A stretch of 64,000 nucleotides of DNA from Escherichia coli (lineage in GTDB: Bacteria; Pseudomonadota; Gammaproteobacteria; Enterobacterales; Enterobacteriaceae), in assembly GCF_044324875.1 (NCBI RefSeq), contig NZ_CP172185.1; one strand, given 5' to 3'. The notes below the pieces were generated by a model. The model saw only the letters and a list, made by a program, of their open reading frames with translations, ran no database searches and had not been told where the DNA came from. Every line of letters starts with the position of its first letter. Position 1 is the first letter of the stretch. The translations under genes and the position numbers were made by a program. Positions 29,170 through 29,425 of this stretch are shown here, piece after piece.

Positions 29170-29425
29170 GTTTTGTGTTGTGGTGCACCTCCTCTACCTC
29201 TCTACACAATCATCTTTCAGGTCAGTAATGGCGCGGCTTTCAGCGGGGTAGAGGGCTTTTTTGGCCCTCTACCTGCCATCTACCACCCCCTCACAAATGC
29301 CCTGAATTATGGTAGAGGGTGTAGAGGGCTTTTAAGTACCTTCTACCTGCCATCTACCCAATCTATCAACATGAAATATATGTAATTATTTTCTTAAGGT
29401 AGAAGGGGTAGAGGGCTTTTGTCTA
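29170..29425. repeat. Iteron-type replication origin (about 10 copies of GGTAGAGGG / CCCTCTACC in both orientations)
   Basis: Dense cluster of direct and inverted 9-mers immediately 3' of the primase-helicase gene, within an AT-rich context. Confidence 0.65.

What the first reader, a model, noticed from the sequence alone, without database searches (positions are those of the whole stretch)
29170..29425. Iteron-type origin with about 10 GGTAGAGGG/CCCTCTACC repeats 3' of the primase-helicase
Dense direct and inverted 9-mers in an AT-rich context are the signature of a Rep-binding origin, placed as in SaPI/PICI ori sites. This defines the island replicon and the likely binding site of the Pri-Rep protein.
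Basis: seen in the sequence. Interest (0 to 1): 0.45.

Follow-up and report, generated by a model that had tools for sequence, protein, structure and literature searches.

The report
Replication origin of an E. coli PICI
The repeat cluster is real and is almost certainly the replication origin of a 10.6-kb phage-parasitic island (PICI) in the E. coli chromosome, a kind of origin already described and tested in a 94%-identical sister island, so it is a correct but ordinary finding.

Summary
Eleven copies of GGTAGAGGG (four exact, six with one mismatch, one with two) lie on both strands at 29190-29415. They start 13 nt after the stop codon of the initiator gene (29429-31177, minus strand). Shuffled sequence gives at most 4 copies.

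The window holds a 10.6-kb PICI between clpS and cspD, with the same att core as the published EcCIIHE3034. Its initiator is 94% identical to EcCICFT073 Pri-Rep, whose pri+ori segment was shown to replicate a plasmid (PMC6092414). The initiator's C-terminus is homologous to the origin-binding domain of phage P4 alpha protein (PDB 1KA8).

- In sister islands the same slot carries different repeats that follow the initiator type. P4-like initiators have TGTTCACC, the P4 iteron, and RepA-type initiators have CCTCACTT.
- The weakest DNA duplex within 3 kb (29359-29397, 82% AT) sits between two iteron sets.
- The repeat layout matches that of the P4 origin.

Two corrections apply. The "primase" label is unverified, because the N-terminal 140 residues match no family. 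The origin is a single site, unlike P4's ori plus crr.

Novelty: a new member of a known kind. Interest is low.

The parts
29190..29206 (-). Iteron set 4, farthest from the initiator gene: two overlapping minus-strand copies, GGTAGAGGA (29190-29198) and TGTAGAGAG (29198-29206, 2 mismatches).
29222..29244 (-). Non-iteron block, CTGAAAGCCGCGCCATTACTG on the minus strand. It is nearly invariant in 63 distinct origins of this allele family. Function unknown.
29247..29284 (.). Iteron set 3: GGTAGAGGG (+, 29247-29255), GGTAGAGGG (-, 29265-29273) and GGTAGATGG (-, 29276-29284). The first two form a perfect 10-bp inverted repeat with 7 nt between the arms.
   Evidence: (I11)
29311..29358 (.). Iteron set 2: GGTAGAGGG and TGTAGAGGG (+, 29311-29328), then GGTAGAAGG (-, 29339-29347) and GGTAGATGG (-, 29350-29358).
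29359..29397 (.). AT-rich spacer (82% AT), the predicted DNA-unwinding element. It contains the least stable 30-mer of 28001-31000 (29368-29397, dG -29.3 against a mean of -42.3, sd 3.3).
29398..29415 (+). Iteron set 1, nearest the initiator gene: tandem GGTAGAAGG and GGTAGAGGG, 13 nt from the initiator stop codon.
29429..31177 (-). Initiator gene ('Pri-Rep', 582 aa) with D5_N, an SF3 helicase domain (DUF5906) and a Pox_D5 C-terminal domain. It is 94% identical to EcCICFT073 Pri-Rep, and residues 141-577 are 39% identical to P4 alpha residues 326-762. The N-terminal ~140 aa are unassigned.
29447..29722 (-). Coding region of the C-terminal origin-binding domain (aa 486-577), homologous to PDB 1KA8 (P4 alpha; E 9.4e-7). 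It contains the AEFSK motif that goes with the GGG iteron subtype.
28885..29142 (-). Downstream conserved PICI gene (85 aa, phrog_1231, function unknown). It is retained at 82-92% identity in islands with different initiators and iterons, which shows that the repeats do not follow this gene.
25136..35719 (.). The PICI itself (10.58 kb), bounded by direct copies of the att core ATGATAGTTAT at 25136-25146 and 35709-35719. Gene order on the minus strand: int, alpA-like HTH, Icd-like, DUF4222, Pri-Rep, ori, hypothetical, ssb, perC, proQ/finO, terS.

Best explanation
This is the single replication origin of an E. coli phage-inducible chromosomal island (PICI). After helper-phage induction and excision, the island's initiator is made. 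The initiator is an SF3 helicase with a P4-alpha-type C-terminal winged-helix origin-binding domain. Inferred steps: its C-terminal domains bind the eleven 9-bp iterons (consensus RGGTAGA-N-GG), which sit in four sets about 74 bp, or seven helical turns, apart. Binding on both sides of the 39-bp, 82% AT spacer (29359-29397) melts that spacer. The helicase loads itself there and replication starts without DnaA. Who makes the primer is open, either the unassigned N-terminal domain or host DnaG. Shown here: the repeats, their non-random clustering, the position, the homologies, the way repeat sequence follows initiator type, and the duplex-stability minimum. Shown by others for the 94%-identical CFT073 module: pri plus ori maintains a plasmid, and deleting either one impairs this.
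For: 1. Repeat cluster: 10 family members against at most 4 in shuffles.
2. Position: 13 nt 3' of the initiator gene inside an island with PICI gene order and the published cspD-clpS att core.
3. Initiator homology: 94% identical to EcCICFT073 Pri-Rep, whose pri-ori segment supported plasmid maintenance while pri or ori deletions did not or did so much less (PMC6092414). The CFT073 and IHE3034 origins align with this one and share invariant GGTAGA cores.
4. Binding domain: aa 486-577 match PDB 1KA8, the P4 alpha C-terminal domain (E 9.4e-7). Residues 141-577 are 39% identical to alpha 326-762.
5. Natural swap experiment: islands that keep the downstream gene at 82-92% identity but carry a P4-like initiator have TGTTCACC repeats, which the P4 record annotates as 'ori type 1 repeat'. 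Islands with a RepA-type helicase have CCTCACTT repeats.
6. Within the allele: the DBD motif A[ED]FSK goes with G at iteron position 8 in 43 loci (32 distinct origins), and N[DE]FGK goes with A in 40 loci (28 distinct), with one exception. Identity to CFT073 falls from 95-100% to 48-73% only across the 3' end of the binding-domain coding region plus the origin, then recovers.
7. Not other regulators: the same AlpA protein accession occurs with both iteron subtypes, and both subtypes occur with different packaging modules.
8. Unwinding element: the AT-rich spacer is the duplex-stability minimum of the surrounding 3 kb and is flanked by iterons.
9. Layout: start-to-start spacings in the P4 origin (10, 43, 22, 11, 10) match those in the CFT073 origin (9, 48, 20, 11, 9) and are close to those in the window (9, 47, 11, 20, 9).
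10. Other site types: no DnaA box, IHF consensus or GATC in the region, as expected for a P4-type origin, which by established knowledge is DnaA-independent.
Against: - No binding or replication data exist for this allele. Everything specific to it is inference from homology and comparison.
- The DBD-motif/iteron-subtype association involves sites less than 200 bp apart and essentially two lineages, so linkage could produce it. One locus (L020) breaks the rule.
- The structure model of the C-terminal domain was too poor to place AEFSK in a recognition helix (pLDDT 50).
- In P4 the iteron cluster directly 3' of alpha is crr, a cis-acting helper site, not the start site. Position alone therefore does not prove that initiation occurs here.
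- An invariant 22-nt non-iteron block inside the region is unexplained.
Confidence: 0.85

Rival explanations
1. The cluster is a P4-crr-like cis-acting accessory site. The initiator binds it, but replication actually starts somewhere else in the island.
For: In P4 the iteron cluster immediately 3' of the alpha gene is annotated crr ('cis required region for replication'), and the origin lies 4.5 kb away. The window cluster occupies the crr-equivalent position.
Against: There is no second cluster. Only two isolated GGTAGA/TCTACC hexamers lie elsewhere in the 10.6-kb island. The half of the cluster nearest the initiator gene has the layout of the P4 origin itself, with two iterons, an AT-rich spacer, one or two inverted iterons and then direct iterons. 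The cloned CFT073 rep gene plus putative ori site was sufficient for plasmid maintenance (PMC6092414).
Confidence: 0.07
2. The repeats are operators for a transcription factor of the island (AlpA, PerC or similar) that controls the downstream hyp-ssb-perC-terS genes. They are not initiator sites.
For: The region is the only sizeable intergenic gap in a unidirectional gene block. One weak sigma-70-like match lies on the minus strand at 29335-29306. Iteron origins of plasmids often also serve as autoregulatory operators (general knowledge).
Against: The repeat sequence changes with the initiator type while the downstream gene stays at 82-92% identity. The identical AlpA protein (WP_001206975.1) is found with both the GGG and CAG iteron subtypes. 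The single promoter-like match is within chance expectation (1 found against 0.7 expected). A secondary regulatory role is not excluded.
Confidence: 0.05
3. The cluster is the packaging signal (pac or cos) recognised by the island's small terminase.
For: The island encodes a TerS homologue (26604-27188). Repeats are common in pac sites.
Against: The same iteron subtype occurs in islands with quite different packaging modules. The window island has TerS but no capsid genes, while L003 and L007 have capsid genes, and CFT073 and IHE3034 differ again. The repeats follow the initiator type instead.
Confidence: 0.02
4. The region is chance repetition, or it belongs to the 70-aa ORF on the + strand (29173-29385).
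For: An ORF of 70 aa is listed there.
Against: Shuffles never exceed 4 copies against 10 observed. The iteron cores are invariant across 63 distinct related origins. The 70-aa ORF is present in only 2 of those 63, and elsewhere the longest ORF on that strand is 24-60 aa.
Confidence: 0.01

Closest known systems
EcCICFT073 Pri-Rep/ori module (Gram-negative PICI origin; Fillol-Salom et al. 2018, PMC6092414)
   Same: Same position, 3' of pri-rep and 5' of the same conserved small gene. The initiator is 94% identical. The intergenic length is about the same (286 against 288 nt). The GGTAGA iteron core, the iteron sets flanking an AT-rich spacer and the invariant CTGAAAGCCGCGCCATTACTG block are all shared.
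   Different: Iteron positions 7-9 are GGG here and CAG/TAG in CFT073. The initiator recognition-region motif is AEFSK here and NDFGK there. The second set has two inverted plus two direct copies here, against one inverted plus three direct there. The origin DNA is only 48-73% identical. The CFT073 island carries capsid genes and this one does not.
Satellite phage P4 ori and crr, with alpha protein
   Same: The initiator's helicase and C-terminal origin-binding domains are homologous (39% identity; 1KA8 E 9.4e-7). Both use short 8-9-bp iterons in both orientations. The layout is the same, with two iterons, an AT-rich spacer of about 35 nt, an inverted iteron and then direct iterons. A cluster lies immediately 3' of the initiator gene. 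Sister PICIs use the exact P4 iteron TGTTCACC.
   Different: The iteron sequence is GGTAGAGGG, not TGTTCACC. There is one cluster instead of ori plus crr 4.5 kb apart. No terminator lies between the gene and the repeats. The initiator lacks any similarity to the alpha N-terminal primase domain.
SaPI origins (Staphylococcus aureus pathogenicity islands)
   Same: The origin lies 3' of the rep gene, with iteron sets flanking an AT-rich region (as described in PMC6092414). The helicase core is distantly homologous to the staphylococcal 'DNA primase' chain 7OLA, E 4.5e-15. That chain is the SaPI5 primase-helicase by my recollection, which was not checked here.
   Different: Different host phylum, iteron sequences and island regulation. 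The homology is limited to the helicase core.
Classical plasmid iteron origins (pSC101, R6K, RK2, P1 or F type)
   Same: Repeated initiator-binding sites next to an AT-rich unwinding element.
   Different: By general knowledge, those origins have 17-22-bp iterons in tandem in one orientation, WH1-WH2 Rep proteins and DnaA boxes, and they depend on DnaA and DnaB. Here the repeats are 9 bp, lie in both orientations and are not accompanied by a DnaA box. The initiator is itself an SF3 helicase.

Membership tests
Gram-negative PICI replication origin (Fillol-Salom 2018) | Lies immediately 3' of the island's pri-rep gene | tested here: met
   The first iteron ends at 29415 and the initiator gene ends at 29429.
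Gram-negative PICI replication origin (Fillol-Salom 2018) | [quoted passage not shown] | tested here: met
   The tandem pair at 29398-29415 and the set at 29311-29358 flank the 82% AT spacer 29359-29397, which is the stability minimum of 3 kb. Two further sets lie beyond.
Gram-negative PICI replication origin (Fillol-Salom 2018) | The host element is a PICI: about 10 kb, a specific att site not used by prophages, int and alpA, unidirectional transcription, no full set of phage structural genes | tested here: met
   A 10.58-kb island bounded by ATGATAGTTAT, the same core and cspD-clpS site as EcCIIHE3034 and EcCI18098 in the paper's supplementary PICI table. The int, alpA-like, pri, ssb, perC and terS genes are all on one strand.
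Gram-negative PICI replication origin (Fillol-Salom 2018) | Pri-rep plus ori supports autonomous replication, and deleting either one impairs it | not testable with these tools
   This was shown only for the 94%-identical EcCICFT073 module.
P4-type origin (alpha protein with type I iterons) | The initiator carries a C-terminal origin-binding domain homologous to P4 alpha | tested here: met
   1KA8 matches aa 486-577 with E 9.4e-7. BLASTP against alpha gives 39% identity over aa 141-577, E 3e-111.
P4-type origin (alpha protein with type I iterons) | Type I iteron TGTTCACC | tested here: not met
   The window iteron is GGTAGAGGG. TGTTCACC occurs only in sister islands with a closer alpha-like initiator.
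P4-type origin (alpha protein with type I iterons) | Bipartite origin: ori plus a distant crr, both required in cis | tested here: not met
   The island has a single cluster and only two stray hexamers elsewhere. P4 has ori at 9.3 kb and crr at 4.3-4.6 kb.
P4-type origin (alpha protein with type I iterons) | The initiator has the alpha-type N-terminal primase domain | tested here: not met
   Residues 1-140 have no alignment to alpha 1-325. They have no Pfam, NCBIfam or PDB match.
P4-type origin (alpha protein with type I iterons) | Iteron layout: a tandem pair, an AT-rich spacer of about 35 nt, an inverted copy, then direct copies | tested here: met
   Start-to-start spacings are 10, 43, 22, 11, 10 in the P4 origin, 9, 48, 20, 11, 9 in CFT073 and 9, 47, 11, 20, 9 in the window.
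Classical plasmid iteron origin (DnaA-dependent, WH-type Rep) | 17-22-bp directly repeated iterons, DnaA boxes and a WH1-WH2 Rep protein | tested here: not met
   The repeats are 9 bp and lie in both orientations. The best DnaA-box match is 7 of 9. The initiator is an SF3 helicase.

The most novel reading that the evidence does not exclude
Two initiator alleles that are 94% identical have diverged together in a few residues of the origin-binding domain (AEFSK against NDFGK) and in iteron positions 7-8 (GG against CA). On this reading the binding-domain 3' end plus the origin forms a small specificity cassette. That cassette would define separate replicon, or incompatibility, groups among E. 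coli PICIs and let several islands coexist and replicate independently in one cell. In addition, the Gram-negative PICI origin would be a one-piece derivative of the P4 origin. It has the same layout, a homologous binding domain, and in some alleles the identical iteron. This would contradict the published view that this origin organisation is shared with no other replicon and that P4 and PICIs evolved independently.
Probability: 0.4. Interest if true: 0.4.

Novelty: new member of a known kind. Interest (0 to 1): 0.2.

Why it matters
It fixes the replicon of this island: the initiator, its binding sites and the probable melting site. That is useful for annotation and for engineering PICI-based vectors. 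The comparison adds two small points of wider interest. First, E. coli PICI origins come as initiator-plus-iteron cassettes that are swapped between islands, with three unrelated iteron sequences and at least two subtypes seen in this one slot. Second, their layout and binding domain tie them to the P4 origin. Neither point changes the basic picture, which was published in 2018.

Tried and rejected
- Intrinsic terminator after the initiator gene: none found.
- Promoter scan: one weak match, within chance.
- Rfam at E<=1 across the island: nothing.
- DnaA box, IHF consensus and GATC sites in the origin: none.
- The + strand 70-aa ORF: not conserved, so spurious.
- AlphaFold2 model of the C-terminal domain from a 6-sequence alignment: pLDDT 50 and unusable, so I could not place the AEFSK motif in a recognition helix and ran no fold search.
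- P4 literature: the 1993 P4 review (PMC372931) is not held. Statements on alpha binding type I iterons and on DnaA independence therefore rest on established knowledge, the P4 GenBank annotation and the title of Yeo et al. 2002 as cited in PMC2777425.
- Later papers on E. coli PICI Pri-Rep: none found.
- First guess at the CFT073 island coordinates hit a lambdoid prophage instead. The island was found.
- Direct and inverted repeats in the odd region 31450-33700: nothing informative.
- Not attempted: whether PICIs that coexist in one genome carry different iteron types. The search tool lists only the best place per record.

Full report
**1. The observation**

The region 29143-29428 is the 286-nt gap between two minus-strand genes: a 582-aa 'DNA primase family' gene (29429-31177) and an 85-aa conserved gene (28885-29142).

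- GGTAGAGGG with at most one mismatch occurs 15 times in the 64-kb window, and 10 of these lie at 29190-29415. An 8-mer scan adds an eleventh, weaker copy at 29198-29206.
- Four copies are exact.
- Along the + strand the copies form four sets. Two minus-strand copies lie at 29190-29206. One plus and two minus copies lie at 29247-29284. Two plus and two minus copies lie at 29311-29358. After a 39-nt spacer, two plus copies lie at 29398-29415.
- Corresponding copies in neighbouring sets are 73-75 bp apart, about seven helical turns, with one 87-bp step.
- The largest 9-mer family in the region has 10 members. Dinucleotide-preserving shuffles give 2.48 +/- 0.54 (maximum 4), and no other 286-nt tile of the window exceeds 5.

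**2. Context**

The window is E. coli chromosome.

- The direct repeats ATGATAGTTAT at 25136-25146 and 35709-35719 bound a 10.58-kb island between clpS and cspD.
- The supplementary PICI table of Fillol-Salom et al. 2018 (PMC6092414) lists the same core sequence and the same cspD-clpS site for the phage-inducible chromosomal islands EcCIIHE3034 and EcCI18098.
- The island's genes run on one strand: integrase, AlpA-like regulator, Icd-like, DUF4222, initiator, the repeats, a conserved small gene, SSB, PerC, ProQ/FinO and a small terminase.

This is the published Gram-negative PICI layout. [quoted passage not shown]

**3. The initiator**

- Pfam finds D5_N (aa 151-280), DUF5906, the SF3 helicase core (aa 314-415), and Pox_D5 C-terminal (aa 485-575).
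- Against solved structures, aa 193-430 match the staphylococcal 'DNA primase' chain 7OLA (E 4.5e-15). That chain is the SaPI5 primase-helicase by my recollection, which I did not check. Residues 486-577 match 1KA8, the C-terminal domain of P4 alpha protein (E 9.4e-7).
- 1KA8 is the P4 origin-binding winged-helix domain of Yeo et al. 2002. The paper's title is confirmed through the reference list of PMC2777425. Linking it to the PDB entry rests on my own knowledge.
- BLASTP aligns aa 141-577 with alpha 326-762 at 39% identity.
- The first 140 residues align with nothing in alpha's primase domain. They have no Pfam, NCBIfam or PDB match.
- The 'primase' name comes from TIGR01613 'primase_Cterm, P4 family', which covers the helicase part.

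The protein is therefore a verified helicase plus origin-binding domain. Its primase activity is unverified.

**4. Link to a tested origin**

EcCICFT073 was located in the CFT073 genome.

- Its Pri-Rep is 94% identical to the window protein.
- Its 288-nt downstream gap aligns with the window region.
- In that island, rep plus the putative ori site cloned in a temperature-sensitive plasmid gave colonies at the restrictive temperature. The rep mutant gave none, and the ori deletion gave significantly fewer (PMC6092414).

The window region is thus a close homologue of an experimentally supported origin.

**5. Comparative evidence that the repeats belong to the initiator**

A blastn search of E. 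coli genomes found two kinds of hit. About 560 genomes match the initiator 3' end, the gap and the downstream gene together. Many others match only the downstream gene. I fetched both kinds.

- Islands with the window-type initiator (582-584 aa) always have 9-12 copies of GGTAGA-NNN in the same layout.
- Islands with a 601-606-aa initiator that is 50% identical to P4 alpha have 10-12 copies of TGTTCACC in the same layout. The P4 GenBank record annotates TGTTCACC as 'ori type 1 repeat'.
- An island with a RepA-type helicase has seven CCTCACTT copies.
- In all of these the downstream gene stays 82-92% identical to the window's.

The repeat sequence therefore follows the initiator, not the neighbouring genes.

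- It does not follow AlpA. The identical AlpA protein (WP_001206975.1) sits in an island whose origin region is 100% identical to the window's (strain TUM1886, GGG iterons) and in IHE3034 (CAG iterons).
- It does not follow the packaging module. Both subtypes occur in islands with and without capsid genes.

**6. Fine-scale pattern within the allele**

I analysed 84 loci: the window, 6 E. coli loci, CFT073, IHE3034 and IMG/VR loci with a complete origin.

- The binding-domain motif A[ED]FSK goes with G at iteron position 8 in 43 loci (32 distinct origins).
- N[DE]FGK goes with A at that position in 40 loci (28 distinct origins).
- There is one exception, L020, which comes from a metagenome contig.
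- Sliding identity between the window and CFT073 is 95-100% over most of the initiator gene. It falls to 85% in the last part of the binding-domain coding region and to 48-73% across the origin. It returns to 88-97% in the downstream gene.

This looks like a small diverging cassette made of the binding-domain end plus the iterons. The two features are less than 200 bp apart and fall into essentially two lineages, so linkage alone could give the association. I treat it as suggestive only.

**7. Anatomy and mechanism**

- Across 63 distinct related origins the GGTAGA/TCTACC cores are invariant while most spacers vary.
- The spacer 29359-29397 is 82% AT. Its 30-mer 29368-29397 is the least stable duplex in 28001-31000 (dG -29.3 against a mean of -42.3, sd 3.3).
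- There is no DnaA box better than 7 of 9, no IHF consensus and no GATC site.
- There is no terminator between the gene and the repeats.
- Read in the initiator's direction, the layout is a tandem pair, the AT-rich spacer, inverted copies and then direct copies. Start-to-start spacings are 9, 47, 11, 20, 9 in the window, 9, 48, 20, 11, 9 in CFT073 and 10, 43, 22, 11, 10 in the P4 origin.

The most likely mechanism is the P4 one. Initiator C-terminal domains bind the iterons on both sides of the AT-rich spacer, the spacer melts, and the SF3 helicase loads itself. Binding, melting and the source of the primer are inferred, not shown.

**8. Rivals**

- A crr-like accessory role is suggested by P4, where the cluster next to alpha is crr. 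However, the island has no second cluster, and the CFT073 pri-ori fragment sufficed for plasmid maintenance.
- A purely transcriptional operator role is contradicted by the swap pattern in section 5. A secondary role is not excluded.
- A packaging-site role does not fit the independence from packaging modules.
- Chance and a coding role for the 70-aa + strand ORF are excluded.

**9. Comparison and novelty**

The feature meets every testable criterion of a Gram-negative PICI origin. It works like a P4 origin, but it fails three P4 membership criteria: iteron sequence, bipartite ori/crr structure and the primase domain. It is not a classical plasmid iteron origin.

The kind is published and a near-identical module has been tested, so this is a new member of a known kind.

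Two modest additions came out of the comparison. One is the correspondence in layout and binding domain with the P4 origin, whereas the 2018 paper states that this organisation is shared with no other known replicon. The other is the candidate specificity cassette. Both need experiments.

**10. Verdict**

Confidence that this is the initiator-binding origin of the island is about 0.85. Interest is 0.2.

Noticed in passing
window 31964-32717 (inside the ORF 31670-33097, minus strand): About 750 nt have no counterpart in CFT073, IHE3034 or the other fetched islands. The stretch keeps one reading frame open, so an Icd-like part (aa 42-126) and a phrog_2512 part (aa 353-474) are fused into a 475-aa ORF. 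The middle ~225 aa match no family and have an odd composition. Only 9 of 5426 complete E. coli genomes carry the full stretch, mostly poultry isolates. Rfam finds nothing. Nature unknown.
   Followed up: partly
window 30758-31177 (initiator aa 1-140): The N-terminal ~140 residues of the 'primase' have no Pfam, NCBIfam or PDB match and no similarity to the P4 alpha primase domain. They are nevertheless well conserved between the two PICI initiator alleles. Whether this protein primes DNA synthesis at all is open.
   Followed up: partly
window 29222-29244 and 29160-29173: Two non-iteron blocks stay nearly invariant in 63 distinct related origins while neighbouring spacers diverge. On the minus strand they read CTGAAAGCCGCGCCATTACTG and AAAACTTTTTAAAC. 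Their function is unknown. Candidates are a host-factor site, a priming site or expression signals for the downstream gene.
   Followed up: partly
window 30730-30870 (initiator aa ~103-150): A second sharp dip in identity to the CFT073 gene (53-65% inside an otherwise 98-100% identical stretch) falls at the linker between the N-terminal domain and the helicase. This suggests mosaic exchange or relaxed constraint there.
   Followed up: no
L020 (IMG/VR contig 3300029303_000153): This is the only one of 84 loci that combines the AEFSK binding-domain motif with CAG-type iterons. It could be a natural recombinant, a chimeric assembly, or a sign that these residues do not set specificity.
   Followed up: no
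window 25136-35719 compared with L002-L012, L096, L097: This island has a small terminase, ProQ/FinO and PerC but no capsid genes. Most fetched islands with the same replication module carry major capsid, decoration or prohead protease genes. The replication module is therefore shared between PICI subtypes with different packaging strategies.
   Followed up: partly
strain TUM1886 (NZ_CP128970.1), whose sequence is 100% identical to the window over the two stretches compared (28885-29750 and 31964-32717): The blastn search reports 5 places in this one genome that match the origin-plus-flanks query. Several PICI-like islands may therefore coexist in it. Whether they carry different iteron types was not examined.
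   Followed up: no
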